Counted from the stretch's first letter, positions 1 to 62,440 are shown. The stretch: 64,000 bases of DNA from an uncultured Pseudobdellovibrionaceae bacterium (GCA_964520985.1 CAZFPB010000002.1:150115-214114); one strand, 5' to 3'. Translations and numbers: made by a program. The notes: a model not told the origin generated them from the sequence alone.

Positions 1-674
1 GAGATGATGGTATTATTGATGTTGATGGTTCAATTAACCACACGCTAGTGGAACGTTTATGGACACGTTTTCCGGTTAAATTTGGTACTGTGACTGGAAA
101 TTTTGATTGCAGGAGCACCATGTTAAAAACCTTACATGGTGCTCCTGATGTAGTTAAAGGTTCTTTCAATTGTACTGATAATGAGTTATCATCATTATTG
201 TGGTGTCCGCGAGAAGTTGGTGGATCATTTCTGTGTTCTAATAATTGGTTGACCTCTCTCCAACATGGTCCTAGTGAGGTTGGAGACATGTATACATGTT
301 CTTATAATAAACTAACTAATTTGATCGGCGCGCCTAATCAAGTTAGAGATTTTAATTGTCATATGAATCCTTTAACGTCATTGAAGGGAATGCCCAAAAA
401 AATATTAGATACGTTGATATGTTATATTGAACGAGGAACCGAAAAAGAAGCAAACCTCGATTATCGATTAATTCGTAATTATTTTGATCACTCACCCTCT
501 ACCGTGATCTGTAGTTTGAGTACTACCGTGTTAAATTGGTTGACTAACAATGGTATTCATACATTTCAAATTGTAGGAGAACCCGATGTTGGAAAACTAT
601 TTTGCACTACCGATATATTAACTGCTCAAGAGCAGATGATTGATCTTGGCTATAGTGAATTTGCAAAAATATAA
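1..674 (+). CDS. paralogous repeat-family protein (family A), 5' end off-window
   Basis: Reading frame stays open back to nt 3 (DDGIIDVDGSINHTLVERLW...), so the true start is upstream of the window. Has ~20-aa Cys-containing internal repeats (GxFxCxxNxLTSLxGAP) and the C-terminal ILTAQEQMIDLGYSEFAKI motif shared with 13 other ORFs here. Confidence 0.6.
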   Translation, partial: DDGIIDVDGSINHTLVERLWTRFPVKFGTVTGNFDCRSTMLKTLHGAPDVVKGSFNCTDNELSSLLWCPREVGGSFLCSNNWLTSLQHGPSEVGDMYTCSYNKLTNLIGAPNQVRDFNCHMNPLTSLKGMPKKILDTLICYIERGTEKEANLDYRLIRNYFDHSPSTVICSLSTTVLNWLTNNGIHTFQIVGEPDVGKLFCTTDILTAQEQMIDLGYSEFAKI

Positions 675-724
675 ATTATTTGTTGACGACAAATATTTTT
701 TTGGAAGACTATTACTCTGGCTGA

Positions 725-732
725 TATAAATA
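725..732 (+). promoter_or_regulatory. T4-type late promoter TATAAATA upstream of NAMPT
   Basis: Exact TATAAATA about 58 nt before the ATG at 790, with RBS GGAG at 778-781. Confidence 0.5.
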
Positions 733-789
733 ACTGTATCACGCTGATAGACGGTGTGGTAATTTCACAATAATAGAAAGGAGTTTTCT

Positions 790-2217
790 ATGACCTACGA
801 AAGCATTATTGACAATCCTCTTGTCCACAGTGATTCATACAAATATTCGCAATACCTGCAACTCCCTCCAAACAGTGAAGACAGCAGCACGTATGTTGAG
901 TCTCGTGGCGGTCGATATCCACAAACTGTAGTGTTTGGTAACCAAGCATTGGTCAAAAGTCGGTTTATGAAACCGATTACTCGTCAACATGTGGAAGAAG
1001 CACATGAGCTGCTTACAGAACATGGTGAACCTTTTAATTACGATGGATTCATGAAAATCGTACGCAAGTACGGTGGTTATATGCCGCTTCGAATTGAGGC
1101 GGTTGCAGAAGGATCTGTTGTTCCGACGGGCAATACGTTGCTTCGTGTTCGTCCGACTGACAGTGAGTTCGTGTGGCTTCCTGGTTTCTGGGAAACTGAA
1201 ATTCTACGTGGTACTTGGTATCCAACTACTGTTGCTACGTACAGCTGGCATATCAAAAAAATCATTAAACGGTATTTGGAAAAGACTGGTACACCAGAAC
1301 TGATTGATTTCAAACTGCACGATTTTGGTGCACGTGGAGTAAGTTCACGCGAATCTGCAGGTCTTGGTGGTCTTGCTCACTTGGTTAACTTCAAAGGAAC
1401 TGACACTGTTTCTGCACTTGCATATGGTCGTGCATTTTATAACTGTCGGATGGCTGGATATTCGATTCCTGCTTCTGAACACAGCACGATGACGAGCTGG
1501 GGTGGGCGCGAAGGTGAAGTTGCAGCAATGAATAACATGTTGCAACAATTTACAAAGCCAGGTCAATTGGTAGCATGTGTAAGTGACAGTTATGATATTA
1601 TGAATGCTTGCCTCAATATTTGGGGTGGTGTTCTGAAAGAAAAAGTACTGCAACTGCATGCCATCGGCGGTAAACTGGTTGTTCGTCCAGATAGTGGTGA
1701 TCCTGTTGAGATTACGCTTCAAGTAGTTGAGGCGCTGGCGAGCCGATTTGGTTTTACCACTAACAGCAAAGGATATAAAGTACTGCACCCAGCAGTTGGT
1801 ATTATCCAAGGGGATGGTATTGACGAAGCAATGGTTGAGAAAATTCTTGCAAATTATGAAAAACATGGTTGGTCGGCAGACAACATTACTTTTGGTTCTG
1901 GTGGTAAACTGCTGCAAGCCCACACTCGTGACGACCAAAAATTTGCAATGAAAATGTCGGCGATTAAAGTGGATAACGAATGGCGTGATGTGTTCAAAGA
2001 TCCGATCACTGATCCTGGCAAGAAATCGAAACGTGGTATTCTGACGTTGGAACGGAACATTCATTCTGGTAACTATCGTACGGTAAGTGATAGCCAGGAA
2101 ATCAAAGGTAGCGATGGTTGGTATAACGCAATGCTTCCTATCTATGATACTGGAGAGATGTTTAACGAAGTTGCATTTGACCAAGTACGTGCAAACGCGG
2201 AAGCAGGGGGCATATAA
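790..2217 (+). CDS. nadV: nicotinamide phosphoribosyltransferase (NAMPT)
   Basis: 475 aa. N-terminal HSDSYKYSQY resembles the NAMPT DSYK motif. DFGARGVSS and VRPDSGDP match the conserved NAMPT catalytic region. Good RBS. Confidence 0.85.
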   Translation: MTYESIIDNPLVHSDSYKYSQYLQLPPNSEDSSTYVESRGGRYPQTVVFGNQALVKSRFMKPITRQHVEEAHELLTEHGEPFNYDGFMKIVRKYGGYMPLRIEAVAEGSVVPTGNTLLRVRPTDSEFVWLPGFWETEILRGTWYPTTVATYSWHIKKIIKRYLEKTGTPELIDFKLHDFGARGVSSRESAGLGGLAHLVNFKGTDTVSALAYGRAFYNCRMAGYSIPASEHSTMTSWGGREGEVAAMNNMLQQFTKPGQLVACVSDSYDIMNACLNIWGGVLKEKVLQLHAIGGKLVVRPDSGDPVEITLQVVEALASRFGFTTNSKGYKVLHPAVGIIQGDGIDEAMVEKILANYEKHGWSADNITFGSGGKLLQAHTRDDQKFAMKMSAIKVDNEWRDVFKDPITDPGKKSKRGILTLERNIHSGNYRTVSDSQEIKGSDGWYNAMLPIYDTGEMFNEVAFDQVRANAEAGGI

Positions 2218-13541: not shown

Positions 13542-13617
13542 GGGGCTAGGGACTGCAGGGGGTGGTCGTCTCACTTGCAATGAGAAAATCAGCGGGGTTC
13601 GATTCCCCGTAGCTCCA
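13542..13617 (+). tRNA. tRNA-Ala(TGC)-like
   Basis: Acceptor GGGGCTA/TAGCTCC with G3:U70 (Ala identity). Anticodon arm TCTCA-CTTGCAA-TGAGA. T-arm CGGGG-TTCGATT-CCCCG. D-loop atypical and variable region 7 nt, so moderate confidence. Confidence 0.5.
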
Positions 13618-13668
13618 CAAGTTAACCTTTAATGACGATAGTTGGTTATTAAAGGATAATGCATGTAT

Positions 13669-13757: not shown

Positions 13758-13767
13758 ACAGAACAAT

Positions 13768-13852: not shown

Positions 13853-13865
13853 ATTAGATGGTAGA

Positions 13866-24893: not shown

Positions 24894-25451
24894 ATGCTAA
24901 CAAACAAAGAAGATATCCAACATTGGCTTAAAGATCATTATGTGTCTAATTATGTTATTAATGATGATTTAACTGTCGATGTCAAAAGTATAGGTGTCGA
25001 TCTCGATAGTCATCAATTGGAATCACTGCCAGTTCAATTCGGACGAGTTGAAGGATACTTTCTTTGTGGGAATAACAAGTTAAAGACGTTACAAGGTGCA
25101 CCTACGTACTGTTCAGTGATGAGATGTCACAACAATTTTCTGTCGACGTTGGAATACGTTCCTAAAACTATTTTAAGTGTACTTGAATGTAGTGGAAATC
25201 CTATTATTGAATATAGATCAGTGTATAAAAACATATCGTGGGTGCAAACTGTCATACTACCATCGTCACCATGTCCTGGGTTTTTATATTGGTTAACAAT
25301 TCCTGGGTTACAAGAAATTAGTCTTCCTTTAAACATGTTCAATGAATTATTCATAGGAATCGTTCAAACAAATTTGCATGATGGTCGTAATTTGTTGCGA
25401 TGTCAAGAGGAGTTAATTGATGCTGGGTTGTCTAAATGGGCGATATTGTGA
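24894..25451 (+). CDS. paralogous repeat-family protein (family A)
   Basis: N-terminal MLTNKEDIQHWLK...INDDLTVDV, internal GxFxCxxNxL(K/T)TLQGAP repeats, C-terminal LLRCQEELIDAGLSKWAIL. Confidence 0.6.
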   Translation: MLTNKEDIQHWLKDHYVSNYVINDDLTVDVKSIGVDLDSHQLESLPVQFGRVEGYFLCGNNKLKTLQGAPTYCSVMRCHNNFLSTLEYVPKTILSVLECSGNPIIEYRSVYKNISWVQTVILPSSPCPGFLYWLTIPGLQEISLPLNMFNELFIGIVQTNLHDGRNLLRCQEELIDAGLSKWAIL

Positions 25452-25462: not shown

Positions 25463-26092
25463 ATGTTGACTAATAAAAAAGATATCGCCAAATGGCTCAA
25501 AGCTCACAATGTATATAAATTTGCCATTAATGATGATCTAACAGTAGATACGTTCGAAAGTGTAGTTTTCCCACGGAAAAAAATATCATCGTTGCCTGTA
25601 AAGTTTAATGAAGTACATGGTAATTTTTTCTGTGTTGGTACTCAGTTAACTACATTATTTGGATGCCCAACTAAAGTCAGTAGCATATTTGATTGCAGTT
25701 TTAATTTTATAACTAATTTAGATTATGCTCCTATTTCATGTGATGCATTTGTATGCGACACAAATCCGATTACAGATTTAACACCGTTAAAACATTGTCG
25801 TTTTAATCATTTGCATTGTATAGATCTCTTAGTTAAGTCATATCGTAATATTTTAGATATTGTAAAGTACTGCAAGACAATTTCAGTTACTGGGTCTGTT
25901 CCAGGAATTCCTTGTATTGCAGAAATTCCTGGGATGATACAAATTGGTATTCATGATGGTACTTATAATTCTTCTTATAAACAGGATAGAGTACCTATAA
26001 TTCGTTGGTTTGATGTTTTGCAACACAATGACATTCTATCGTTTCAAGAATTGCTATTTGAAAGTGGATTTCCACAGTGGACTAAAATGTGA
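25463..26092 (+). CDS. paralogous repeat-family protein (family A)
   Basis: Start at ATG 25463 by analogy (MLTNKKDIAKWLK). C-terminal LLFESGFPQWTKM is a divergent copy of the motif. Confidence 0.55.
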   Translation: MLTNKKDIAKWLKAHNVYKFAINDDLTVDTFESVVFPRKKISSLPVKFNEVHGNFFCVGTQLTTLFGCPTKVSSIFDCSFNFITNLDYAPISCDAFVCDTNPITDLTPLKHCRFNHLHCIDLLVKSYRNILDIVKYCKTISVTGSVPGIPCIAEIPGMIQIGIHDGTYNSSYKQDRVPIIRWFDVLQHNDILSFQELLFESGFPQWTKM

Positions 26093-34794: not shown

Positions 34795-36312
34795 ATGGCA
34801 AATAAAAAACTCAACCCAAAAGGTAAAGATATTAAAGGTAATATCGTTGCGGTTGCTGCGAAACATGATCGCCAGTTGGCTCGTTCTGGTAATGGAAATC
34901 TTCAGTTTGTAAAAACTGCTCGTTCCGATTTGTATGCTATCATTACGTCTACGCTGTATGGACGTGATACGTATTATAATTCTGGTGACCAAATCGTCGC
35001 TCGACTGAAACAACAGATCGACGCTGTGGTTAATGAAGAAGATGGGCCAGACTTTATTGCAAACTTGATTATTCATGCTCGTACAGAAATGCACATTCGA
35101 ACGATTCCGATCGTTGCAACTGTGCATCTTGCAAAGTCATTGCGTGATCAAGGTAAGACGTTTGAATCAATGCGTCGTCTTGTATGTGATGTTATTACTC
35201 GTGCAGATCAGATTACTGATATGTATGCGTATTCGCTAACCGTATTCGGCGACAAGAAAAAAGTGCCAATGGCAATTAAGCGTGGTGTTGCTGACGCATT
35301 TAACAAATTTGATGAATATCAATTTGCTAAGTACAACCGCAGCAATGAATTGAAAATGCGTGACGTATTACGAATTGTTCACCCTGTTGCTGCAAACGTG
35401 GCACAAGGTGAGATTTTTAGTCGTATTATGTCTGATACGTTAGCTACTCCATATACGTGGGAAACTCAGTTGAGCGAAAATGGTCAGCGTGATCCCAAAG
35501 AACGTAAATCGCTTGACGAATTATGGACAGAGCTGTTCACGTCTGGAAAGATGGGTTATATGGCTCAGTTGCGTAATCTGCGTAACTTGGAACAGAATGT
35601 ATCTCATCAACCGACATTGAAAGCAGTTGCAAGTGTGATTGCAGATCCAGATCGTGTTGAAAAATCGAAACAATTGCCTTTTGATTTTACAGAGGCATAT
35701 AAAGCAGTAAGTAATTCGACCTTGAAGACTGCTGTTTCACGTGCGATCGATCACAGTGTTGGTAATATTCCAGCACTTGGTAAAAACGTATGGATCATCG
35801 TTGATGCGTCTGGATCGATGAGTGGATTTCCACGTGAAATGTCAACGATGTTCGCCGCCGCGATTTACAAGAATGCGACGTTCAATCCTGAAGTTGAGAA
35901 TCATGCGCTAACGGTTTTTGGATCGAAAGCACATATGGTTACTGATTTGGATTGCAACCAATCCATTTTTCATATTGCACAGAAGTTTCAGAAAAACTTG
36001 GGAGCAACAGATTTTGACGAAGCGTTACAATTAAAATCAAAACTTGGTTTTAATCCTGACACAGTAATTGTGTTCACGGACAATGAAATTGATGATATGC
36101 CATATGGCAATCTTGCTTATGCATTTGATGATAAATGTGTCAAAATTGCTGTTAACTTGGAAGCGTCGGTAACGACTCCTTTCATTCGTGAAAATGGATG
36201 GTACGAATTGGCAGGTTGGTCTACTAACATGTTTAAGTTCGTTCGAGCTATTCGTGACAAACGAACAGCAGTTGATGTTCTAAGTGTTCCATACGGAACA
36301 GTGCAATATTAA
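34795..36312 (+). CDS. rsr: Ro60/Rsr ortholog (TROVE domain + von Willebrand factor A domain)
   Basis: C-terminal vWA MIDAS motifs: WIIVDASGSMSG (DxSxS), LGATDFDEAL, VIVFTDNEIDD (FTDNE identical to human Ro60). N-terminal helical region with LYGRDTYY (compare GSEGGTYY) and LRIVHPVAA (compare RIHPFHIL). 505 aa. Confidence 0.75.
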   Translation: MANKKLNPKGKDIKGNIVAVAAKHDRQLARSGNGNLQFVKTARSDLYAIITSTLYGRDTYYNSGDQIVARLKQQIDAVVNEEDGPDFIANLIIHARTEMHIRTIPIVATVHLAKSLRDQGKTFESMRRLVCDVITRADQITDMYAYSLTVFGDKKKVPMAIKRGVADAFNKFDEYQFAKYNRSNELKMRDVLRIVHPVAANVAQGEIFSRIMSDTLATPYTWETQLSENGQRDPKERKSLDELWTELFTSGKMGYMAQLRNLRNLEQNVSHQPTLKAVASVIADPDRVEKSKQLPFDFTEAYKAVSNSTLKTAVSRAIDHSVGNIPALGKNVWIIVDASGSMSGFPREMSTMFAAAIYKNATFNPEVENHALTVFGSKAHMVTDLDCNQSIFHIAQKFQKNLGATDFDEALQLKSKLGFNPDTVIVFTDNEIDDMPYGNLAYAFDDKCVKIAVNLEASVTTPFIRENGWYELAGWSTNMFKFVRAIRDKRTAVDVLSVPYGTVQY

Positions 36313-36337
36313 AAAAGGGGCTTAAGCCCCTTTTTTA
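36311..36337 (+). terminator. rho-independent terminator (bidirectional: A-run / GGGGC-TTAA-GCCCC / T-run)
   Basis: AAAAAAGGGGCTTAAGCCCCTTTTTT sits between convergent genes. Confidence 0.75.
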
Positions 36338-36669
36338 TTGTCTATTGGTTTTGGTGCTGTTACGTCATGAATCCAAATTGCCCATTTATATAATCGCACA
36401 TAAGCAAGCAATTGCATAATTGGATGTGCAATCAAGTTGTGGATAGACCATACGTGTTTCCGCCACATTAATCGTTTGCCTTCTAGGGCTGATGGTTTAA
36501 TAGCCCACAGCAATTCAATGGCAAAGAAACCTGATACTGTGTCAACTCCATGTGTGTGATAAACAGTAAGTTGCAGGTGTTCAATATTTGTGTCATCAAC
36601 ATACTGAATGGTTGATTTTTCTACAACACCATTATCTGTTTTGAAAAATTGGTTCATAATGTAATCCAA
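36322..36669 (-). CDS. hypothetical protein
   Basis: 115 aa on the - strand, abutting the family A tandem array. Confidence 0.4.
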   Translation of the reverse strand: MDYIMNQFFKTDNGVVEKSTIQYVDDTNIEHLQLTVYHTHGVDTVSGFFAIELLWAIKPSALEGKRLMWRKHVWSIHNLIAHPIMQLLAYVRLYKWAIWIHDVTAPKPIDNKKGA

Positions 36670-37322
36670 TTGTCGTTGTAGCCAGCATCAATCATTTCTT
36701 CTTGGCACAAGAGAATATCTTTTGTACTGGAATGCTGATTTAGTATTCGTGAAACTTCTTCGCATGTTACAGTATCAAGTTCAATCCAAAATTCATGGTA
36801 TCCATCAACCAATAACCAATACAAAAGACCTGGAATTAGAGTATTAGACATAACACCGATCGTAGATGGATTATCTACTGACAACATAATAGCAGGTTTG
36901 CCATAATGCTTTCCATATGCACTACCAACATACTTAATATAATGATGGATGTTTTTATAGGTAACAATCGGATTTTGTTTACAATTAAATGAACCACCAA
37001 CAAAACTTGGAGCTCCATATAACGATTTTATTTTGTTGCGACTACAGTCAAATGATCCTTTCACTGATTTAGGAGCGCCTATCAGAGTAACCAATTCACA
37101 CTCATCGCAATAAAAGTTACCATTAACAGTATCAAATGTGATGGGTATTTTGCCGCCTTCTATTGACTCTTTACTTAATACGACATCACAATCTGTTGAA
37201 ACTGAATAATCGTCATTAATTGTATATGCAGAAACGTTCCACCAAGTCAAATAAAGTTGGATCATTTTAAGTTTTTGTTGATGAAGATATTCATCACGTG
37301 CTGTTCTTAGAGCGTAGCCCAT
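36654..37322 (-). CDS. paralogous repeat-family protein (family A)
   Basis: C-terminal LLCQEEMIDAGYNDNWITL; internal GNFYCDECELVTLIGAPKSVKGSFDCSRNKIKSLYGAP repeats. Confidence 0.6.
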   Translation of the reverse strand: MGYALRTARDEYLHQQKLKMIQLYLTWWNVSAYTINDDYSVSTDCDVVLSKESIEGGKIPITFDTVNGNFYCDECELVTLIGAPKSVKGSFDCSRNKIKSLYGAPSFVGGSFNCKQNPIVTYKNIHHYIKYVGSAYGKHYGKPAIMLSVDNPSTIGVMSNTLIPGLLYWLLVDGYHEFWIELDTVTCEEVSRILNQHSSTKDILLCQEEMIDAGYNDNWITL

Positions 37323-37987
37323 TGATGTAATCCGCGATCCATTAATTGTTCTTGAGCACTTAGAATATCATTAGTCAGAGCATTTTGCGTAAGAATATCA
37401 GACATAACAGAGTATTCATTATTCTTAACTAAGATACACCGAAACGTATGAAGTCCCTTTATTAGGGTCCAATACAACAATCCATCGATTGGAATTAATG
37501 ACGATTCACTGACCATTTGATCAATGAATGCGTTTGTGGTTAAAGGAATGTAGATAGGAGTCAGTTTAGAATTGATAGACCCTCCTATTTGGTCACACAT
37601 TTTATGAATATTTTTATATGTAACGATTGGGTTGTCTGTACAACTAAAAGCCCCAACTATCTTTTTAGGCATATGTTCTAACGTCGTCAGATCGTTAGTG
37701 TTACAGTCAAAATATCCATTGACATATTCTGGACCATTTATTAATGATTTAAGTCCTGTATGTGTGCAATCAAAGTTACCATCTATGTGTCTAATCTTAA
37801 ACGGAAAATATTTGAAATGTCCAAGAGTTTTACAAGATTGATGTATATCTACGATGTATTGATATGTGTTTACATTAGTGTGTATTTCGTATTGTGAGAC
37901 GTTCCACCTATTCAAAAAGTATTCTATTTCAGATTTTTGAATATTCTCAGGCGTAACACTATCACCATCTGGAAATTTAAAGTTCAT
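37307..37987 (-). CDS. paralogous repeat-family protein (family A)
   Basis: C-terminal ILSAQEQLMDRGLHQWATL. Confidence 0.6.
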   Translation of the reverse strand: MNFKFPDGDSVTPENIQKSEIEYFLNRWNVSQYEIHTNVNTYQYIVDIHQSCKTLGHFKYFPFKIRHIDGNFDCTHTGLKSLINGPEYVNGYFDCNTNDLTTLEHMPKKIVGAFSCTDNPIVTYKNIHKMCDQIGGSINSKLTPIYIPLTTNAFIDQMVSESSLIPIDGLLYWTLIKGLHTFRCILVKNNEYSVMSDILTQNALTNDILSAQEQLMDRGLHQWATL

Positions 37988-38640
37988 AACTTTGCCCAGT
38001 CACTATATCCAGCGTCAATTAATGCTTCCTGACACCCAAGAAGATCTTGTGATTTTAAGTATTTGTTGAAAATTTGATATATGGGTCCTATATTATCGGT
38101 CAGCGCGGGTAAGTTAATATAATTCATTCCAGGAATTAACATCCAATATAGTATTCCTTTAGCTGGTCCTTCTTCAATAATTACGGAACTACAAAACTTT
38201 AATGATTTTATAATATGTTTGTGTGTTGTAATGCGATTGCCACCAATCATACATGTACTTTCTACATGTTCTGGAAAGTATTTCCAATCTGTTATATGGT
38301 TATTTGCACACATAAAATTATTATTAATAGAACGTGGAGCATATTGTAACGATTTTAACTCATTGTAATTGCAATTAAACGTTCCTTCCACGTGAGTTGG
38401 TGATCCTTTGAGTGATGTTAATTTATTACTCGCAATGTTAAACTCACCATGAACTACACCAAATTGAATCGGAAGGTATGTTAAACCGTTATCCAAAAGA
38501 TTTACTGAGTCGTCAACATCTACAGTAAAATCATCATTGACAGTATACTTTTCAATACCATATCTTCTTAACCAAGATCGTATTTTTTGTTTATCGACGT
38601 ACATGTTATCAGTTTTAGTATATTTGGTCATGGTTGTCAC
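37984..38640 (-). CDS. paralogous repeat-family protein (family A)
   Basis: C-terminal LLGCQEALIDAGYSDWAKL. Confidence 0.6.
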   Translation of the reverse strand: MTTMTKYTKTDNMYVDKQKIRSWLRRYGIEKYTVNDDFTVDVDDSVNLLDNGLTYLPIQFGVVHGEFNIASNKLTSLKGSPTHVEGTFNCNYNELKSLQYAPRSINNNFMCANNHITDWKYFPEHVESTCMIGGNRITTHKHIIKSLKFCSSVIIEEGPAKGILYWMLIPGMNYINLPALTDNIGPIYQIFNKYLKSQDLLGCQEALIDAGYSDWAKL

Positions 38641-39227
38641 ATCATTGCAAAATTAGCATACCCAGCATCAATCAATGCTTCTTGACATTTGAGAATGTCA
38701 CCGTCGAGTTGAGCATAGTGGTTTATGATATCTGATACATGTATCGCTTCATTATCGTCGAATATATCACTACTCAAGTGTATTTTACAGGTTTTATATC
38801 TTAACCAATTTAAAATTCCTGGGACTGGATAAATTGGTATTGCAATTACAGCGTTTAAATGACTTGAACCGACTGAAGTAATATGTTGTCGAAGGTCACA
38901 AAAACTACTAATTTTATTATCAGAACAATCAAAGTGTAAATGTATCCATTTGGGCGCCCCTTGTAAAGAAACCAGTTGGTTTCTACCGCAGAAAAATGAT
39001 CCATATACAACATCCGGACTATTAGTCAACGACGTCAACTGATTATGGGCGCAATCAAAATCTCCATTAATGAAACCGAATTTAAATGGAAGAACACGTT
39101 GTTTAACCCGAAACGAGATATCAACATTCTGAGACACATCAACTACAAGGTTATCATGAATCTTGTAGTTGACGATGTTCCATTCATCTAATTGATGTTC
39201 AATTTGAGTTTTGGTAAAGGTTGTCAC
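38637..39227 (-). CDS. paralogous repeat-family protein (family A)
   Basis: C-terminal ILKCQEALIDAGYANFAMM. Confidence 0.6.
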   Translation of the reverse strand: MTTFTKTQIEHQLDEWNIVNYKIHDNLVVDVSQNVDISFRVKQRVLPFKFGFINGDFDCAHNQLTSLTNSPDVVYGSFFCGRNQLVSLQGAPKWIHLHFDCSDNKISSFCDLRQHITSVGSSHLNAVIAIPIYPVPGILNWLRYKTCKIHLSSDIFDDNEAIHVSDIINHYAQLDGDILKCQEALIDAGYANFAMM

Positions 39228-47583: not shown

Positions 47584-48102
47584 ATGATGCAACAATTGAC
47601 GAGTCGCAATCAAATATTGGATTGGTTGTTTGCTCATGATAAGGCTATACGTAGCAGACGCAAATATTTGATACGGTACGATGACACTGATAATACGTGG
47701 TATGTTTCAGTTAATGGTGATTTATCTCTTGTATATGCAGATATAACTTGTATTCCCTTCCGTCTGGATTTCATCCATGGCAGCTTTAATGCACAGCATA
47801 CAAAAATATCAAATGTGTCAGATCTCCCAGCTCATGTTTTTGGAAGTCTTGGCATTAGTCATACCAAAATAACTTCGTTACATAACATTCATCATTTTGT
47901 ACAATCATGTCACACGTTTGTATCCGGATCTGATCATGTCACTCATCTTCTTGGGTTGTTTTCAATTGAAAGATTGAATCGTGTAATAACAATTGAAAAT
48001 GATACTATGGAAATCATAAACAGACATTTACCCTCACGCAATATGTTAGCTTGTCAGGAAGAACTAATTGATGCTGGTTACGTCGAGTGTGCGAAACTAT
48101 GA
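47584..48102 (+). CDS. paralogous repeat-family protein (family A)
   Basis: C-terminal MLACQEELIDAGYVECAKL. Confidence 0.6.
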   Translation: MMQQLTSRNQILDWLFAHDKAIRSRRKYLIRYDDTDNTWYVSVNGDLSLVYADITCIPFRLDFIHGSFNAQHTKISNVSDLPAHVFGSLGISHTKITSLHNIHHFVQSCHTFVSGSDHVTHLLGLFSIERLNRVITIENDTMEIINRHLPSRNMLACQEELIDAGYVECAKL

Positions 48103-48833
48103 GTAAAAATGCGTGGTCTAAATTTCAAGATATGTTTATTGCTCGTACGTTGCCTCCTGAAGAAATTGAACGAAGGAAGCGAGCACATGAAGAGTACCTA
48201 TTTCAAGAATTAGTTCATAAAAGTATTTACGATTTACGGCTATCGTTTACCGGGTTTCATATTGACCATGCCCGCCGGTGTGTTGATTTCAAAGATCCAG
48301 TGAATGTTCGTGGGTATAACGGCTCAGAGCTACCATTTCAATTTGGAACCGTTCGTAGCATGTGTCAATTTGAATCTTGCGAACTTCGAACGATCAAACA
48401 TCTTCCAACGATGACATCACATGGCTCCCTATATGTCCATCGATGTAAACTAAACACGCTTGACTATGACATCATTAATTACAAGCATGATGTTACATAT
48501 CAATTTTCAGATAATGGAATAACACATTTTACCAATAAGATTGTGTTGCCATATGGAAAACTGACTTTAATGGAACCTGGCATTAAATCGTTAAAGAATA
48601 TTCATCATTTTATTAACGTGAGATCGTTAACATTATCATGTCCAATTGACAGTAATGTTCTCGGATTGTTGTTAATACCTTCTTTAGAGGCTTTATCTTT
48701 TGTTTTTTCGAAAGAGTACGCTCATTTAAATCAAGTAATGGATATTGTGTGTCGACATTTAGACACAAGAAACATTTTAGCCTGCCAAGAAGAGTTAATT
48801 GATGCAGGTTTTGGAGATTATGCGAAGTTATGA
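48099..48833 (+). CDS. paralogous repeat-family protein (family A)
   Basis: C-terminal ILACQEELIDAGFGDYAKL; start at ATG 48099. Confidence 0.55.
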   Translation: MSKNAWSKFQDMFIARTLPPEEIERRKRAHEEYLFQELVHKSIYDLRLSFTGFHIDHARRCVDFKDPVNVRGYNGSELPFQFGTVRSMCQFESCELRTIKHLPTMTSHGSLYVHRCKLNTLDYDIINYKHDVTYQFSDNGITHFTNKIVLPYGKLTLMEPGIKSLKNIHHFINVRSLTLSCPIDSNVLGLLLIPSLEALSFVFSKEYAHLNQVMDIVCRHLDTRNILACQEELIDAGFGDYAKL

Positions 48834-49498
48834 CAGAAGATGATAAACTATCTCAATTTGTTGAAAATGCTACAAAAGGAATTGAAGAACTTAATTTGGG
48901 TGATCATTATTACGTAATGAACGCTAAGATGTTAACCGTTGATTTCAGGCAATCAGTTGAGATTAAAGAGTACCACAAAGAAGAATTACCATTTCAGTTT
49001 GGACCGGTTGAAGGATCTTTTTCTATTGCAAATAGTAATATTAGAAATCTTAAAGGCATTCCTCCACATTGTTATGGGAGTGGAATTAGTATATTGGGTT
49101 GTGAGTTACAATCATTACAACATCACAGTTTTGATCCCAATTTTTCTACAGAAATAGTGATTGAAGGTGGGCATCTTACTAAAATAGATGTTCCGATTAA
49201 CTTACCTAAAGGTTATATTCGCATAACTCACACTGACATAACTAATTTGAAAGATATTCATAAAGTTCTGCGGGTTAGAGCATTAAGAATGTTTTCAAAT
49301 CCAATAAAATCTCATGTGCTTGGACTTCTGTTAATTCCTGAATTAACAAGTTTCACATTAGATGCATATTCTATAAATTTTGATGAAAGTCTTAGAGCAG
49401 CGAGTAAAATTTTACAAAAACATCTCGACACACGAAATATTCTTGCTTGTCAAGAAGATTTAATAGATGCTGGCTTATGCGAATTCGCTAAACTTTAA
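48830..49498 (+). CDS. paralogous repeat-family protein (family A)
   Basis: C-terminal ILACQEDLIDAGLCEFAKL. Confidence 0.6.
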   Translation: MTEDDKLSQFVENATKGIEELNLGDHYYVMNAKMLTVDFRQSVEIKEYHKEELPFQFGPVEGSFSIANSNIRNLKGIPPHCYGSGISILGCELQSLQHHSFDPNFSTEIVIEGGHLTKIDVPINLPKGYIRITHTDITNLKDIHKVLRVRALRMFSNPIKSHVLGLLLIPELTSFTLDAYSINFDESLRAASKILQKHLDTRNILACQEDLIDAGLCEFAKL

Positions 49499-58488: not shown

Positions 58489-59382
58489 ATGTCTAAATTT
58501 AAATGGGTGGAAACATTTCTTTCTGCTGAAGGTGAGGCCCAATATACTGGAAAAAATACAGTATACGTTCGCTTAACCAACTGCAACTTCAGTTGTAACG
58601 GATTCAACAATAAAGAAAATCTGATTGCAACTGATATTGACGTGTTAGGATTTAATCCTAGCGAATACGAAAACATCTATCACATGCCAGCAATTACTCG
58701 TGGATGTGATTCTGCATATGCATGGGATCCAAAGTTCTCACATATGTGGAAATCTGGCAATGAAGATGAACTTGCTCGTGAATTAGTTGACTTGATTCCT
58801 CACAAAAAATGGATCCATCCATACACTGGAATGGATTATGCGTTAAGTATTACTGGGGGTGAACCAAGCCTTCATGCAAAACAACTACCAGCATTACTTC
58901 ATCATCCGCTGCTTGATGACTGTCTGCATGTCATCTTTGAAACTAACTGTTCAGTTCCATTGACCATTAATTTCATTTCACAAATCAATGCATGGCTGTG
59001 CAAGAATCCACGTCGTCGTTGGACATGGTCTAATAGTCCAAAACTGTCGTCGAGTGGTGAGCCTCGTGATAAAGCGATTCGTCCTGACATCGCATTGCGA
59101 CAAGCAATGACTGCTGGTAAAACAGGTTTGAACCAAGTGGATCAATACTTTAAATTTGTTGTACATGATGAAGCGGACGTTGATGAAGTAGAATCTGTGA
59201 TGCAACAATATTATGCGGCAGGTGTAAATCGACTGGCCCCTGTATGGTTGATGCCTGCAAGTTGCACACACGAACAACAGCAACAAATTGCTCAGAACAT
59301 TGCAACTTTATGCATGGAACGTGGTTACTTGTTCTCATATCGTTTGCAAAATGCGTTATGGGAAAATGCTGTTGGTCGTTAA
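58489..59382 (+). CDS. QueE-like 7-carboxy-7-deazaguanine synthase (putative)
   Basis: N-terminal FLSAEGEAQYTGKNTVYVRLTNCNFSCNGF parallels QueE (F.S.QGEG...G.P..FIRL.GC...C). Confidence 0.45.
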   Translation: MSKFKWVETFLSAEGEAQYTGKNTVYVRLTNCNFSCNGFNNKENLIATDIDVLGFNPSEYENIYHMPAITRGCDSAYAWDPKFSHMWKSGNEDELARELVDLIPHKKWIHPYTGMDYALSITGGEPSLHAKQLPALLHHPLLDDCLHVIFETNCSVPLTINFISQINAWLCKNPRRRWTWSNSPKLSSSGEPRDKAIRPDIALRQAMTAGKTGLNQVDQYFKFVVHDEADVDEVESVMQQYYAAGVNRLAPVWLMPASCTHEQQQQIAQNIATLCMERGYLFSYRLQNALWENAVGR

Positions 59383-59395
59383 TAAATGATATTAA

Positions 59396-59417
59396 AGAGG
59401 GAGAAAAACCTCCCTCT
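59396..59417 (+). other. hairpin AGAGGGAG-AAAAAC-CTCCCTCT (weak terminator)
   Basis: 8-bp stem after the QueE-like gene; no clear T-run. Confidence 0.3.
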
Positions 59418-59442
59418 TGTACTAATAAGGAAAAGAACCAAA

Positions 59443-59876
59443 TGACATACTATAATGATAAACCAATTTATAGAGCTGCCATGGTTCCGTATGTTGTTGA
59501 AGATGGACAAATCTGGATGTTATTTCAGAAACCAAGTGATCCAACTTATGGTGGTGACAGTTATCAGTTAGCAAAAGGTAAAGTTGAAGAAGGTGAAACT
59601 GCTGAGGAAGCAGCAGTACGTGAAGCACAAGAAGAAGTAGGGTTATTTCGTGGAAACGTTGTCAAGGGACCTGAACATGTTGGATTATTTCTTGGGCGTA
59701 CTGATGTATATGTGTGCAAAGTGAAAGATCGTGATCTATTTGGTTTGCCAAGTGACGAAACTGAAAGCACGAAATGGATGACGTTAGAAGATTTTCTCAA
59801 TGAAGGTCGTTTGTTGCACAAACCAGTAGTTCAAGCATGCATACGAGCAATTGAACGGTTAGAAACTCAAGACTGA
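59443..59876 (+). CDS. Nudix hydrolase
   Basis: Start at ATG 59443 (RBS AAGGAAAAG). GKVEEGETAEEAAVREAQEEVG is a Nudix box (GX5EX7REUXEEXGU). Confidence 0.7.
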
Positions 59877-59889: not shown

Positions 59890-60531
59890 ATGACACACAG
59901 ATCAGGGCACCGTCGAAGCAAAATTAATGGTTGGTGTCATTCCATACAATTAAAGGACTTCTGTATTCTGTATAACACACACTTACAAGATTTTGTAATT
60001 AATGTGCATGAGTCTGTGGACTTACCGAAAGAGGTTGATCAACTTCCGTATCGATTTGGTGTAATCAAAGGCGGATTTAATTGTAGTTATTCTAAAATAA
60101 AATCATTCGAAAACTTTCCTACAATAATTTCCGGTAAATTGACTTTAAATCATACGCATATTAATCCAACAACATTAACTCACATGATTCATGCTGATCG
60201 TATTATTTGGCGCGCTGGATTCAATAGAGCAACTGAAACATTTGCATATCCTGACGGTATTGATCATTGTTTTCAGTATTTTGATACACGATATTTCGAA
60301 TGTAATGTTCACCCACATTTGTTAAAAATGATGTTGATCAAAAATCTGGTTAAGGTTTATGTATTAGATATTGCTTCAATCAATATAGACAATACAAAGA
60401 AAGTGTTTGATAACGTATTGTCTGAAAGTACATGTACAAAAATTATTAACGACCATATTGAAACTAAAGATATTCTGGTAGCTCAAGAACAGTTAATTGA
60501 TGCAGGTTTTGTAAAATTTGCAAAGTGGTGA
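59890..60531 (+). CDS. paralogous repeat-family protein (family A)
   Basis: C-terminal ILVAQEQLIDAGFVKFAKW. Confidence 0.55.
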   Translation: MTHRSGHRRSKINGWCHSIQLKDFCILYNTHLQDFVINVHESVDLPKEVDQLPYRFGVIKGGFNCSYSKIKSFENFPTIISGKLTLNHTHINPTTLTHMIHADRIIWRAGFNRATETFAYPDGIDHCFQYFDTRYFECNVHPHLLKMMLIKNLVKVYVLDIASINIDNTKKVFDNVLSESTCTKIINDHIETKDILVAQEQLIDAGFVKFAKW

Positions 60532-60534
60532 TAT

Positions 60535-61089
60535 ATGACATCCAAATTTATAACTGACTATAGCAAAATAAGTCAGTGGTTAATGGACAATAATATTCCT
60601 GGTGATAAATGTATCATCAACATCGACGGAACTGTTGATGTATCAACAGACGTTGACATTAGTGGCCGTAATCTTGAGCGAATTCCTATTAAATTTGGAA
60701 TAGTTTGGGGAAAGTTTTTATGCCATGGAAATAAATTAAAGTCGTTGGCAGGAGCACCAGATAAAGCAACGGTTCTGTTCTGTCAAAATAATGCACTAAC
60801 AACGTTAAATGATATTGTTATTGAGTGTAATTTAATGTTGTGTCATAACAACCCAATTACTTCATATAAAGATGTTATCAAACACATCAAATCAATACAT
60901 GGAGTGATGTTACCAAATAATAATATTCCGATACTGCAATGGTTTTTAATTGATTCGTTAAAAGAAATTGAGGTTGAACATAACACTGTTGTAAATGAAA
61001 TACTTAAAAGACATATTATTTCGAAAGACATATTAGCGTGTCAAGACGAATTAATCGATTCAGGTTTTACAGATTGGGCTAGATTGTGA
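60535..61089 (+). CDS. paralogous repeat-family protein (family A)
   Basis: C-terminal ILACQDELIDSGFTDWARL. Confidence 0.6.
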   Translation: MTSKFITDYSKISQWLMDNNIPGDKCIINIDGTVDVSTDVDISGRNLERIPIKFGIVWGKFLCHGNKLKSLAGAPDKATVLFCQNNALTTLNDIVIECNLMLCHNNPITSYKDVIKHIKSIHGVMLPNNNIPILQWFLIDSLKEIEVEHNTVVNEILKRHIISKDILACQDELIDSGFTDWARL

Positions 61090-61802
61090 GGTACCGGGAT
61101 CATTTTATTGCAAGCAGTTGGGTATACCAACTTATTGACGGTTGGATTACTAAAAATAAATTAAACGATACAATGTATGCAGTTTTAAAAGAACCATTTA
61201 GAGATTTATTATTTCATGATATTCGTATAGATGATTTTGAAATAGTTCTTACGAAACAAGATATTTGGTTAACCAATAATCCTGATGAGCTTTATGGAAT
61301 TCCTTTTAAATTACCTAACGTTCCTGGAGCATTTATAGCTGTAGATTCTCGAATGGAAAGTTTATGCAATTGTCCTGATGAAGTACAAGGTGCATTCGTG
61401 TGCGGATCTTTATACTTACGGTCACTGTTTGGAATCCCTAAAGTTATGCAAAACTGTGAAATTTTAGAGATTAATCGCGAGTTAACATATAGAAATATTC
61501 ATAAACAAGTTAATGTAGCGGATAGTGTAACTCTTCCTCATCATCCACGTCCGGGAATATTAAATTGGTTGCTAATACCATCAATACAAAGCATACATTT
61601 CCATGATTATTCGTTGGAACCAAACCCTGATCCTAAGATATATGGATGGCGCTCAGGTGATAAAGATCCTCGTCAAATATTCACTGATGGTGACCGCCAT
61701 TTAATTGAAAGTATATTGAATCGACACATTCATACAAAAGATATACTAACTGCTCAAGAAGAATTAATTGATGCTGGATTTGCTAGATGGGCTAGATTGT
61801 AA
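61086..61802 (+). CDS. paralogous repeat-family protein (family A)
   Basis: C-terminal ILTAQEELIDAGFARWARL. Confidence 0.6.
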   Translation: MRYRDHFIASSWVYQLIDGWITKNKLNDTMYAVLKEPFRDLLFHDIRIDDFEIVLTKQDIWLTNNPDELYGIPFKLPNVPGAFIAVDSRMESLCNCPDEVQGAFVCGSLYLRSLFGIPKVMQNCEILEINRELTYRNIHKQVNVADSVTLPHHPRPGILNWLLIPSIQSIHFHDYSLEPNPDPKIYGWRSGDKDPRQIFTDGDRHLIESILNRHIHTKDILTAQEELIDAGFARWARL

Positions 61803-62440
61803 TGGGCCGCGATGTTTCTTATCTATTCAGCACACCATTAAATAAATGGCTTCGGGATAATGGATGTAAGGAGCGCGTTGCATGTTGGTTAACTGATGAC
61901 AACACATATCATGTTACAACAGGTCCCGAGGGTATTTGTTTAAACGAGATTGATATTAATTCAATACCATTTATCATTGATGCAGTTCATGGTGATTTTG
62001 TTTGTCTTCATAGTCCCTCATCTACTCTAGTAGGTTGTCCACGAATAGTAAATGGTAACTTTCGTTTTGGGTCTAATGAATTAATTTCGCTAAGAGGATT
62101 GCCTCAAGTTGTTCGTGGAGGAGAATGTGATATTCGTGCAGTTGGCCCAGGAGTATCGTACTTAGACATCCATCATTATATTACAGTTGAAGGTGGGGCT
62201 TCACTTCCTGTTCGAGAGGATACTTCAGGGTTATTATATTGGTTATTGGTGCCTAATATTACTCAATTTTGCTTTTATACCCCACGGTCTCACATAATAT
62301 TAGGAGACCGATTACAAGAATCGTTTGAGATTTGTCTTAAACTTGAAACAATCTTTAATGCCCATGTAAAAACAAAAGATATTCTAGCAGCTCAAGATGA
62401 ATTAATTGATGCTGGACTTGGTGTGTATGCAACAATGTAG
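61802..62440 (+). CDS. paralogous repeat-family protein (family A)
   Basis: C-terminal ILAAQDELIDAGLGVYATM. Confidence 0.6.
   Translation: MGRDVSYLFSTPLNKWLRDNGCKERVACWLTDDNTYHVTTGPEGICLNEIDINSIPFIIDAVHGDFVCLHSPSSTLVGCPRIVNGNFRFGSNELISLRGLPQVVRGGECDIRAVGPGVSYLDIHHYITVEGGASLPVREDTSGLLYWLLVPNITQFCFYTPRSHIILGDRLQESFEICLKLETIFNAHVKTKDILAAQDELIDAGLGVYATM

What the first reader, a model, noticed from the sequence alone, without database searches (positions are those of the whole stretch)
1..62440. Fourteen-member paralogous protein family (family A) in five clusters on both strands
ORFs 1-674, 24894-25451, 25463-26092, 36654-39227 (four in tandem, - strand), 47584-49498 (three in tandem) and 59890-62440 (four in tandem) share one architecture. 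The N-terminal region (...W...Y.INDD.TVDV) is followed by two to five ~20-aa repeats containing a conserved Cys (V.G.F.C..N.LTSL.GAP..V), then a strongly conserved C-terminus ending (I/L)L.(A/C)QE(E/Q)LIDAG(F/Y)...A(K/R)L. Cores diverge but the ends are conserved, which is the signature of a rapidly diversifying multigene family, about 14 percent of this window. I cannot place it in a known fold from sequence; a Cys-ladder/LRR-like solenoid is plausible. Candidate roles are host-interaction or anti-defence decoys, or hypervariable binders.
Basis: seen in the sequence. Interest (0 to 1): 0.7.

Follow-up and report, generated by a model that had tools for sequence, protein, structure and literature searches.

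The report
Jumbo-phage family of small LRR proteins
A large T4-like phage carries at least 14 old, diverged copies of a gene for a small leucine-rich-repeat binding protein with a variable binding face and a very conserved tail; the fold is well known, but this family is unnamed, nearly confined to huge phages, and of unknown function.

Summary

The N-module plus repeats is very widespread (18,162 representatives at 50% identity). The C-terminal cap module is almost restricted to jumbo-phage contigs, with arrays of more than 30 genes. Ralstonia phage RsoM2USA has 1-3 copies, annotated hypothetical.

"Rapidly diversifying" is not supported. Synonymous sites are saturated between paralogs, and orthologs in two related phages have dN/dS 0.11, like their flanks. 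Change is by gene gain and loss.

Best reading (inferred): a repertoire of soluble intracellular binders of host proteins. The main rival is virion-borne host recognition. I rate it a new variant of a known kind, of moderate interest.

The parts
1..674 (+). Family copy 1, 5'-truncated by the window edge (frame 3-674). Five 21-aa LRR units. The complete protein is P0238, 270 aa.
24894..25451 (+). Family copy 2 (185 aa)
25463..26092 (+). Family copy 3 (209 aa; alternative ATG at 25436). Its stop overlaps the start of the DUF488 gene at 26089-26493.
36654..37322 (-). Family copy 4 (222 aa), last family gene of the minus-strand operon
37307..37987 (-). Family copy 5 (226 aa)
37984..38640 (-). Family copy 6 (218 aa). 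Target of AF2 model m957e08b77c02 (pLDDT 91.1).
38637..39227 (-). Family copy 7 (196 aa). It lies 3 nt downstream of the aldolase_II/DFP-like gene at 39231-40493.
47584..48102 (+). Family copy 8 (172 aa); repeats degraded, Cys ladder lost
48087..48833 (+). Family copy 9 (248 aa); repeats degraded
48830..49498 (+). Family copy 10 (222 aa); repeats degraded
59890..60531 (+). Family copy 11 (213 aa). It lies 13 nt downstream of the NUDIX gene at 59244-59876.
60535..61089 (+). Family copy 12 (184 aa). Target of AF2 model mcb8f5cc522c9 (pLDDT 94.1, pTM 0.86).
61086..61802 (+). Family copy 13 (238 aa)
61802..62440 (+). Family copy 14 (212 aa)
36310..36337 (.). Palindromic GC-rich hairpin flanked by A/T runs (AAAAAAGGGGC..GCCCCTTTTTT), between the convergent TROVE gene (+) and the minus-strand operon that holds copies 4-7. 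Probably a bidirectional terminator.

Best explanation
The 14 ORFs encode small (172-270 aa), soluble, single-domain leucine-rich-repeat proteins.

Anatomy (shown or predicted with high confidence): each protein is one capped solenoid.
- An N-terminal helix and beta-hairpin form the N-cap.
- Then come one to five regular 21-residue repeats, G-x-F-x-C-x-x-N-x-L-x-S-L-x-G-x-P-x-x-V, in which a stacked Cys replaces the usual Leu (a 'cysteine ladder').
- Then come two irregular LRR turns with short helices on the convex side.
- The C-cap is two helices. The second is ..L-x-C-Q-E-E-L-I-D, and the chain then ends at A-G-[LFY]-x-x-[YFW]-A-K-L-COOH.
- The core positions are invariant or conserved. The beta-strand positions between them (2, 4, 6, 7, 9 of the unit), which form the concave ligand-binding face in LRR proteins, are highly variable.

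How it most likely works (inferred): the phage makes a repertoire of cytoplasmic binders. Each has a different concave surface on the same stable scaffold. They bind, and so block or redirect, host or competitor proteins during infection. The most plausible targets are variable ones such as defence-system components.

The strongly conserved tail is most simply the structural C-cap of the solenoid. The D-A-G sequence would terminate the helix, and the aromatic, Ala and Leu residues would pack on the exposed hydrophobic end.

The family evolves by old duplication plus gain and loss of whole genes at conserved gene boundaries, under purifying selection on each copy.
For: Paralogy and census.

Fold:
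- Two independent AF2 models of different copies have pLDDT 94.1 / pTM 0.86 and pLDDT 91.1 / pTM 0.87, with the same element order.
- Foldseek against BFVD and against the PDB returns mostly LRR proteins.
- The family profile hits the LRR segments of InlJ (8.5e-6) and IpaH9.8/SspH1. NCBIfam gives sub-threshold matches to SspH2 and InlJ.

Variable face on an invariant core: per-position entropy over 21 repeat units.

Soluble and cytoplasmic: no signal-peptide-like or TM-like segment; 12 of 14 have pI 5.1-6.9 (the others 7.0 and 8.2); 4-9 Cys each.

Selection:
- In the conserved tail, same-codon use is 0.493 against 0.460 expected, and the longest shared nucleotide run is 21 nt. Conservation is therefore at the protein level.
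- Orthologs in L006/L007 have dN/dS 0.11 against 0.13 for flanks.
- A gene is present or absent between about 20-nt direct repeats at gene starts.

Non-late, accessory context in this phage:
- The clusters are tightly packed, with gaps or overlaps of a few nucleotides, behind NUDIX, aldolase/DFP-like and DUF488 genes.
- The surrounding region is rich in tRNAs, RNA ligases, TROVE, PTH2, RF-1-like, Gad2-like and NAMPT genes.
- No TATAAATA late-promoter motif lies upstream of any cluster.
- Another copy lies next to gp32/UvsX.

Virion: the family is not among the 10 bands assigned after LC-MS/MS of the most abundant RsoM2USA virion gel bands (PMC8504454).

Established knowledge: LRR domains are protein-binding modules, and the bacterial effectors with the most similar repeats (internalins, YopM, IpaH/SspH) bind host proteins.
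Against: - No target, expression timing or localisation was measured; the functional part is inference.
- Neighbourhoods in other phages are mixed and include virion genes: major head protein, tail sheath, baseplate wedge, phrog_11591 'virion structural protein'. Guilt by association with counter-defence genes in this window is therefore weak.
- The same N-module plus repeats occurs 13 times in a 1,755-aa protein followed by large ORFs in a phage-like contig, which could be a structural or adhesin protein.
- The tail is conserved more strictly than a cap might need. Gln is invariant, and the chain ends exactly 14 residues after it in 112 of 124 sequences. That leaves room for a shared partner.
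- The dN/dS test comes from one pair of related phages of another lineage, with only 35 substitutions.
- No model coordinates were available, so burial of the tail residues is inferred from helical periodicity, not measured.
Confidence: 0.45

Rival explanations
1. Virion-borne host-recognition modules. The small LRR proteins attach to fibres, baseplate or capsid, possibly through the conserved C-terminal module. They would present different binding faces to bacterial surface structures, giving the phage a multivalent or broadened adsorption apparatus.
For: - In other jumbo-phage loci, family genes lie within 4 kb of tail tube, sheath, sheath stabiliser, head-tail adaptor, major head, baseplate wedge and 'virion structural protein' genes.
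- A 1,755-aa protein made of 13 N-module+LRR units sits in a phage-like contig, followed by large ORFs.
- There is a precedent in Goslar: a shared DUF7941 docking module fused to LRR or carbohydrate-binding domains, proposed to act in host recognition (10.64898/2026.04.21.720040).
- A tail-fibre-like ORF (56616-57971, minus strand) lies about 2 kb from cluster 5.
Against: - In this window all five clusters are embedded in operons with metabolic or RNA-repair genes, none with structural genes.
- No T4-type late promoter motif lies upstream.
- The proteins are small, with no detectable trimerisation or anchor domain.
- RsoM2USA members were not among the 10 virion bands assigned from the gel; this is weak evidence, because only the most abundant bands were analysed.
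- In the other loci the neighbours also include replication genes and homing endonucleases, so the structural proximity is not specific.
Confidence: 0.2
2. Adaptor repertoire with a shared docking handle. The invariant C-terminal helix pair and fixed-length tail bind one common partner, either a phage or a host machine such as a protease, a compartment or a packaging site. The variable LRR face selects different clients. This would be functionally like poxvirus ankyrin/PRANC proteins or F-box-LRR adaptors.
For: - The tail is far more conserved than the rest: Gln invariant, +12 Ala in 110 of 112, chain end fixed 14 residues after Gln in 112 of 124.
- It is maintained by protein-level selection.
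- It is conserved across arrays whose middle parts are barely alignable. The L016 array matches by HMM only over the C-module, yet hhalign gives 99.1% probability over the full length.
- The same N-module+LRR scaffold is combined in other lineages with at least six alternative, internally conserved C-terminal tails, as expected for exchangeable functional modules.
Against: - Both AF2 models place these residues in the helical C-cap of the solenoid. The conserved pattern (hydrophobic heptad-like spacing, D-A-G helix stop, aromatic/Ala/Leu at the end) is what a purely structural cap would show.
- No candidate common partner was found, and no F-box, PRANC or other docking domain is detected.
- The C-module profile has no significant PDB match; the best is the Ku70 SAP domain at E 0.07.
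Confidence: 0.15
3. Packaged internal proteins. The family members are loaded into the capsid and ejected with the DNA to act at once on host proteins, like T4 internal proteins or the injected proteins of phiKZ-like phages.
For: - A multi-copy, diverse, small-protein family in a T4-like phage recalls the plastic internal-protein loci of T-even phages (own knowledge).
- Some relatives lie near head genes.
Against: - There is no conserved N-terminal capsid-targeting or cleavage motif; the N-termini vary in length and sequence.
- The family is not seen in the 10 assigned RsoM2USA virion bands.
- No late promoter motif is present.
Confidence: 0.07
4. Functionless or selfish filler. On this reading the copies are decaying duplicates or cargo that hitch-hikes with homing endonucleases in plastic genome regions.
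For: - Family genes are often adjacent to HNH or homing endonucleases in other phages.
- Copy number differs between near-identical phages.
- The repeats are degraded in one cluster.
Against: - All 14 ORFs are intact despite saturated synonymous divergence.
- Orthologs have dN/dS 0.11.
- The AF2 models are confident.
- The family persists across very divergent jumbo phages.
Confidence: 0.03

Closest known systems
Internalin-J (Listeria InlJ, PDB 3bz5), the 'cysteine ladder' LRR
   Same: - It has a 21-residue LRR unit in which a stacked Cys replaces a core Leu.
   Different: - InlJ is a large secreted, cell-wall-anchored protein with a signal peptide, an internalin N-cap, an Ig-like inter-repeat domain and many more repeats.
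- The phage proteins are 172-270 aa and have no signal peptide.
- They have a different N-cap (helix plus hairpin) and a two-helix C-cap.
- The NCBIfam InlJ score is 18.6 bits against a cut-off of 1700.
LRR domains of NEL-type type III effectors (IpaH9.8, IpaH1.4, SspH1/2, SlrP) and YopM
   Same: - They have short bacterial-type LRRs ending in a conserved Pro, used as the substrate- or target-binding module of proteins that act inside another organism's cytoplasm.
   Different: - There is no NEL E3-ligase domain and no room for one.
- There is no type III secretion signal.
- The match is confined to the repeats and is far below family cut-offs.
Small capped intracellular LRR proteins of the SDS22-like class (SDS22/PPP1R7, dynein light chain 1, U2A', ANP32A)
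   Same: - They are a similar size, a single LRR domain with helical caps, and act as cytoplasmic or nuclear protein-protein adaptors.
- The 'NPI..Y..I' turn after the regular repeats resembles the LRRcap motif (my reading of the sequence, not tested with a model).
   Different: - They are eukaryotic and have no Cys ladder.
- There is no sequence similarity to the QEELIDAG tail.
- They are not multigene arrays.
LRR protein expansions of giant viruses and uncultured phages (BFVD entries named 'Leucine-rich repeat protein')
   Same: - They are virus-encoded, often multi-copy LRR proteins of unknown function.
- They are structural neighbours in BFVD.
- The N-module+LRR profile matches 18,162 cluster representatives, often as tandem gene arrays, for example 11 genes in L001.
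   Different: - They lack the QEELIDAG..AKL C-terminal module and carry other tails.
- That module is found here almost only on jumbo-phage-sized contigs.
Poxvirus ankyrin-repeat/PRANC proteins and F-box-LRR adaptors (functional analogy only)
   Same: They are virus-encoded multigene families that join a variable repeat-based binding domain to a short conserved C-terminal module.
   Different: - No F-box or PRANC similarity was detected.
- Bacteria have no SCF ligase.
- The conserved module here is predicted to be part of the solenoid cap, not a separate domain.

Membership tests
Leucine-rich repeat (LRR) superfamily (fold level) | Tandem 20-30-residue units with the LxxLxLxxNxL-type conserved segment | tested here: met
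   The unit is 21 residues, G1-x-F3-x-C5-x-x-N8-x-L10-x-S12-L13-x-G15-x-P17-x-x-V20. F3/C5/N8/L10 correspond to LxLxxNxL. There are 1-5 units per copy.
Leucine-rich repeat (LRR) superfamily (fold level) | Curved solenoid with one parallel beta-strand per repeat | tested here: met
Leucine-rich repeat (LRR) superfamily (fold level) | Match to curated Pfam LRR models above the gathering score | tested here: not met
   There is no Pfam LRR hit at E <= 1 for 10 copies. Relatives give only sub-threshold LRR_4 and LRRNT hits.
Internalins (InlJ-type cysteine-ladder LRR) | Cys in place of the core Leu, stacked along the repeats | tested here: met
   Cys occupies unit position 5 in 17 of 21 units. InlJ is the best PDB sequence hit.
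Internalins (InlJ-type cysteine-ladder LRR) | Signal peptide, internalin N-cap, Ig-like inter-repeat domain and cell-wall anchor | tested here: not met
   No N-terminal hydrophobic segment is present. The proteins end in a two-helix cap. The NCBIfam internalin_J score is 18.6 bits against a cut-off of 1700.
NEL (IpaH/SspH/SlrP) E3 ligase effectors | C-terminal NEL domain with a catalytic Cys | tested here: not met
   The proteins are 172-270 aa. Pfam and NCBIfam detect only weak similarity to the LRR segment of SspH2, at 20 bits against a cut-off of 1243.
SDS22-like small LRR proteins with an LRRcap | LRRcap motif after the last repeat | not tested
F-box/PRANC-type adaptor families | C-terminal F-box-like domain that binds Skp1 | tested here: not met
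   There is no Pfam hit. The C-module profile has no significant PDB match.
Goslar-type DUF7941 fibre proteins | N-terminal DUF7941 docking module | tested here: not met
   No Pfam family matches the window copies at E <= 1. According to 10.64898/2026.04.21.720040, that module is exclusive to chimalliviruses.
Known anti-phage defence or annotated phage families (PADLOC, PHROGs) | Match to a library model | tested here: not met
   PADLOC gives no match. PHROGs gives only weak hits (E about 6e-4 to 6e-3) of two copies to phrog_21719 and phrog_7816, both of unknown function.

The most novel reading that the evidence does not exclude
The fixed-length, near-invariant C-terminal tail (…C-Q-E-E-L-I-D-A-G-[LFY]-E-[ED]-[YFW]-A-K-L-COOH) may be more than a cap. 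It could be a common docking handle that plugs a repertoire of differently specific LRR binders into one phage or host machine, for example a protease, an injection or packaging site, or a compartment. That would give jumbo phages a modular, expandable adaptor system of up to 30 or more members per genome. The alternative conserved tails seen on the same LRR scaffold in other virus lineages would then be handles for other machines.
Probability: 0.15. Interest if true: 0.8.

Novelty: new variant of a known kind. Interest (0 to 1): 0.45.

Why it matters
LRR domains are among the most widely used protein-recognition scaffolds in host-pathogen conflicts, yet they have hardly been discussed for bacteriophages.

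This work defines an unnamed family that takes up 14% of a 64-kb stretch of a T4-like jumbo phage. It reaches more than 30 tandem genes in another huge phage. Its N-module plus repeats matches over 18,000 protein clusters that no curated library names.

If the proteins bind host factors, they would be a large, naturally diversified library of phage-made binders, and a route to finding new host targets or defence systems.

If the tail is a docking handle, it would be a new modular adaptor principle in phages.

Ralstonia phage RsoM2USA is cultivable and carries the family, which makes these ideas testable.

More modestly, the family deserves a Pfam/PHROG entry, so that thousands of 'hypothetical proteins' can be annotated.

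Tried and rejected
- Close relatives by DNA: megablast of the minus-strand cluster against 50,697 GenBank phages found nothing. tblastn with three different members found only repeat-region matches in a handful of records, plus RsoM2USA itself.
- Parent record: exact-sequence look-ups of the 330-kb NCBI parent contig failed, so whole-genome copy number could not be counted. L029, from SRR8931242, is 100% identical to the window and gave no polymorphism data.
- GTDB genomes: the automatic pattern failed. A hand-made degenerate tail motif gave 6 stretches, and only one was real: L025, a 302-kb contig in a 'Gallionella' MAG.
- C-module against the PDB: nothing significant; the best hit was the Ku70 SAP domain at E 0.07, which I rejected.
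- PTS1 idea: the terminal 'AKL' matches the eukaryotic peroxisomal PTS1 consensus. I rejected it as a coincidence, because AEL, AQL and ATL are common variants and the genome is a T4-like phage.
- Gene conversion or cassette shuffling as the cause of the conserved ends: rejected by the synonymous-site test.
- Promoter scans: the sigma-70 scan was at chance level (61 sites against 59.6 expected). The TATAAATA motif is rare and absent upstream of the clusters. Both are only weak evidence on timing.
- Guilt by association across 17 loci: neighbours are functionally mixed, so no conclusion follows.
- Literature: searches for LRR or paralog families in jumbo phages found no description of this family. 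The Iyer et al. 2021 jumbo-phage survey mentions neither LRRs nor the family.
- The afdb50 fold library was not available. Model coordinates were not exposed, so solvent exposure of conserved residues could not be computed.

Full report

Yes. The window has ORFs at every coordinate given, and their translations show the quoted motifs. An HMM built from the 14 sequences, run with all filters off against all 619 stop-to-stop ORFs of at least 40 aa in six frames, finds exactly these 14 (E 1e-72 to 1e-48). The next hit has E = 0.17.

Because that model was built from the same sequences, I ran leave-one-out tests. Each copy is recognised essentially end to end by a model of the other 13, at E 4e-31 to 2e-59. 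Two further profiles recover the same 14 ORFs and nothing else. One covers only the N-terminal module plus repeats. The other covers only the C-terminal module and was built mostly from other phages.

Pairwise identity is 18-39%. The family covers 8,897 nt, or 13.9% of the window.

Corrections to the finding:
- Copy 1 is truncated by the window edge. The full protein (P0238) is 270 aa.
- The repeat period is 21 residues, and 1-5 units per copy are recognisable.
- The 47.6-49.5 kb cluster has degraded repeats.
- The genome has more than 14 copies. P0004 is on the same 330,120-bp NCBI contig. P0229 is on another contig of sequencing run SRR8931242, which also yields a contig identical to the window.

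**2. What genome is this?**

It is a T4-core jumbo phage.
- A second contig from the same sequencing run carries gp32, UvsX/RecA, UvsW and the gp44 clamp loader immediately downstream of another family copy.
- The nearest cultivated phages by RNA ligase are Ralstonia RsoM2USA (64% aa identity), Salicola SCTP-2 (61%) and Caulobacter CcrBL9-like phages (58%).
- Nothing in GenBank phages is close at the DNA level.
- The window is an accessory region dense in translation, RNA-repair and counter-defence genes. These include 16 tRNAs, a CCA-adding enzyme, RNA ligases, TROVE/Ro, PTH2, an RF-1-like gene, HAD_SAK_2, a Gad2-like gene, NAMPT and NUDIX.

**3. What are the proteins?**

No curated library names them.
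- Pfam has no family at E <= 1 that recurs or makes sense.
- PHROGs gives only two weak hits to families of unknown function.
- NCBIfam gives only far-sub-threshold matches to the LRR segments of SspH2 and InlJ.
- PADLOC gives nothing.

A profile search of PDB sequences points to LRRs. The best match is internalin-J, whose entry is titled for its 'cysteine ladder' (E 8.5e-6). The LRR domains of IpaH9.8 and SspH1 follow.

Two AlphaFold2 models of different copies, made from different alignments, are confident and concordant. Copy 60535-61089 has pLDDT 94.1 and pTM 0.86. Copy 37984-38640 has pLDDT 91.1 and pTM 0.87. Both show the same order of elements:
- an N-terminal helix;
- a beta-hairpin;
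- a series of parallel strands at repeat spacing;
- two further turns with short convex-side helices;
- two C-terminal helices and a short terminal segment.

Fold comparison agrees.
- Foldseek against viral models returns mostly LRR proteins of giant viruses and uncultured phages.
- Foldseek against the PDB returns LRRs, but none at E <= 1e-3, so there is no close solved homologue.

It is the last two irregular LRR turns plus a two-helix C-cap.

**4. Anatomy of variation**

I analysed 21 clear repeat units.
- G1, F3, C5, L13 and P17 are invariant or nearly so, and N8, L10 and V20 are moderately conserved.
- Positions 2, 4, 6, 7 and 9 carry about 2.8-3.2 bits of entropy. These are the beta-strand residues that line the concave, ligand-binding face in LRR proteins.

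This is the classic signature of a binding scaffold with a diversified interaction surface.

The proteins have no signal-peptide-like or transmembrane-like segment. Twelve of 14 have pI 5.1-6.9 (the others 7.0 and 8.2), and each contains 4-9 Cys. This is consistent with soluble cytoplasmic proteins.

**5. The tail**

I examined 124 tails from the window, other phage loci and database hits.
- The Gln of C-Q-E-E-L-I-D-A-G is invariant.
- The chain ends exactly 14 residues after it in 112 of 124 sequences.
- Position +12 is Ala in 110 of 112.
- The last residue is Leu in 92 of 112.

Synonymous sites under the conserved residues are scrambled. Same-codon use is 0.493 against 0.460 expected from codon usage, and the longest nucleotide run shared by any two copies is 21 nt. 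Conservation is therefore due to selection on the protein, not to recent gene conversion.

In the models the segment forms the second cap helix and a short terminal helix or coil. The pattern is what a structural cap would show: hydrophobic residues at helical spacing, D-A-G at the helix end, and an aromatic, Ala and Leu at the terminus. I could not compute burial because coordinates are not exposed.

**6. Distribution**

An exhaustive profile search of 1.84 billion cluster representatives gives 18,162 hits at E <= 1e-3 and 2,765 at E <= 1e-30. Most cover only profile positions about 5-113, the N-module plus repeats, and often several times per protein. Tandem gene arrays also occur, for example 11 genes in L001.

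The same scaffold is joined to at least six alternative, internally conserved C-terminal tails.

The QEELIDAG..AKL module has a much narrower range.
- A motif scan of IMG/VR gave 19 loci, many on contigs of 100-360 kb.
- Arrays reach 6-8 genes (L006, L007) and more than 30 consecutive genes on one 360-kb contig (L016, L018).
- That large array matches by HMM only over the C-module. It is nevertheless homologous along the whole protein by profile-profile comparison: 99.1% probability, E 1.8e-18, 177 columns.
- A motif scan of 596 Gb of GTDB genomes gave one true hit, on a 302-kb contig binned into a MAG.
- Among cultivated phages I found the family only in RsoM2USA. ORF61 has the full architecture (E 1.2e-23), and ORF81 and ORF82 match the C-module. 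All three are annotated hypothetical.

**7. Is it 'rapidly diversifying'?**

The paralogs are too old to test directly. L006 and L007 are about 98% identical, collinear stretches from two related phages. Three orthologous family genes there have pooled dN/dS of 0.11 (10 nonsynonymous and 25 synonymous differences). Three flanking genes have 0.13 (Fisher p = 0.82). That is ordinary purifying selection.

What differs between the two phages is gene content. L007 has one extra, divergent family gene. It is bounded by an approximately 20-nt direct repeat formed by the conserved starts of successive genes, ATGAAAATAAAAGAACTATT. The family therefore changes by gain or loss of whole genes at conserved boundaries.

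The caveat is that this is one pair, from another lineage, with few substitutions.

**8. How does it most likely work?**

Shown:
- It is a family of capped LRR scaffolds with a variable concave face.
- Each copy is under purifying selection.
- It is expanded in jumbo phages.

Inferred: the proteins are soluble intracellular binders that the phage uses to bind, and block or redirect, host or competitor proteins. The supporting points are:
- the absence of export signals;
- tight operon packing behind NUDIX, aldolase/DFP-like and DUF488 genes in an RNA-repair and counter-defence region;
- the absence of T4-type late promoter motifs upstream;
- a copy next to gp32/UvsX;
- absence from the 10 assigned RsoM2USA virion bands (PMC8504454);
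- the general role of the most similar LRR domains as host-protein binders (established knowledge of internalins, YopM and IpaH/SspH).

I put this at about 0.45.

The main rival is virion-borne host recognition, at about 0.2. It rests on three things. Some relatives lie close to structural genes. A 1,755-aa protein carries 13 copies of the module. In Goslar, a shared docking module is fused to LRR domains. However, neighbourhoods across phages are functionally mixed. They include homing endonucleases, a gp0.7-like kinase, topoisomerase II, SbcC, major head protein, tail sheath and baseplate wedge. This is the pattern of scattered plastic accessory genes and settles nothing.

A third reading is that the tail is a shared docking handle (about 0.15). 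It is the most novel possibility that the data leave open.

The packaged-internal-protein reading (about 0.07) and the functionless-filler reading (about 0.03) are less likely. The filler reading is contradicted by the intact ORFs and the low dN/dS.

**9. Comparison with what is known, and novelty**

The fold is a standard LRR. The repeat type is closest to the InlJ cysteine-ladder and bacterial short LRRs. The size and capping resemble the small SDS22-like LRR proteins.

It is not a member of the internalins: there is no signal peptide, Ig-like domain or anchor. It is not a NEL effector, because there is no ligase domain. It is not an F-box or PRANC adaptor, and it is not a DUF7941 protein (see the membership table).

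I found no description of this family in the literature searches or in the 2021 jumbo-phage survey. I rate it a new variant of a known kind: an unnamed LRR family with a distinctive N-cap and C-cap and lineage-specific expansion in jumbo phages.

Interest is moderate (0.45). A 14-copy to 30+-copy LRR repertoire in bacteriophages is unusual and testable, since RsoM2USA is cultivable. But the fold is ordinary, the function is inferred, and LRR expansions are already familiar from giant viruses.

Noticed in passing
window 13542-23809 and 42409-42481: There are 16 tRNA genes. Fifteen form a cluster that includes several Ile and Thr isoacceptors. A separate tRNA with anticodon CUA, called 'Pyl' by ARAGORN, is a possible amber suppressor. 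Only one of the 14 family genes ends in TAG.
   Followed up: partly
window 26089-36312 (and 790-2217, 7265-8353, 43161-44348, 59244-59876): The window is a dense RNA-repair, translation-rescue and NAD island. It holds DUF488, a Gad2-like protein (PF26128), an RF-1-like gene, HAD_SAK_2, PTH2, Band_7, two RNA ligases in the window plus a third further along, TROVE/Ro with VWA, a CCA-adding enzyme, NAMPT and NUDIX. It looks like a counter-defence toolkit against tRNA- or NAD-targeting host systems.
   Followed up: partly
window 36310-36337: A perfect palindromic hairpin flanked by A and T runs lies between convergent genes. It is probably a bidirectional intrinsic terminator that closes the minus-strand family operon.
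   Followed up: no
L016:145-16614 and L018 (IMGVR_UViG_3300009709_000002, 360 kb): More than 30 consecutive ORFs of about 200 aa belong to the same superfamily. They are head to tail with overlapping stops and starts. Only the N-terminal helix and the C-module are clearly conserved.
   Followed up: partly
L001:8856-20864 (NCBI GCA_040384245.1, contig JAWVHA010000002.1, 1.9 Mb): Eleven tandem genes carry the N-module plus repeats but have other C-termini. They sit on a 1.9-Mb contig of unknown nature, either cellular or giant-virus.
   Followed up: no
L030:7853-13120 (JGI 3300031920, 20-kb phage-like contig): A 1,755-aa protein contains 13 copies of the N-module+LRR unit. It is followed by 775-, 398- and 264-aa ORFs and may be a structural or adhesin protein built from the same module.
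   Followed up: no
L006:8740-8830 versus L007:2547-3358: Two phages that are about 98% identical differ by one whole family gene. It is bounded by a direct repeat of about 20 nt, formed by the conserved first codons of successive genes (ATGAAAATAAAAGAACTATT).
   Followed up: yes
database hits P0002-P0120: The same LRR scaffold carries at least six alternative conserved C-terminal tails. Examples are ..KFT..DV.KVC.V...I.V..YNEWRKLYKRK.ILDDIF..NLKRLKYLM..FDK.I...IEKYY.I..GYKYIDL; and ..KKLKI. The GYKYIDL group comes largely from one 629-kb contig.
   Followed up: partly
L002:3244-4794, L015:3671-5509, L019:7397-9310: Large HNH or homing-endonuclease genes lie directly upstream of family genes in three independent phage loci. 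This suggests a link between endonuclease mobility and spread of the family.
   Followed up: no
BFVD hits A0A8D4GM21, A0A8D4GLZ7, A0A8D4GM51, A0A8D4GP65: The four best viral structural matches, and several weaker ones, share one UniProt accession prefix and have no name. They are probably a paralogous set in a single deposited phage, which I could not identify with the tools available.
   Followed up: no
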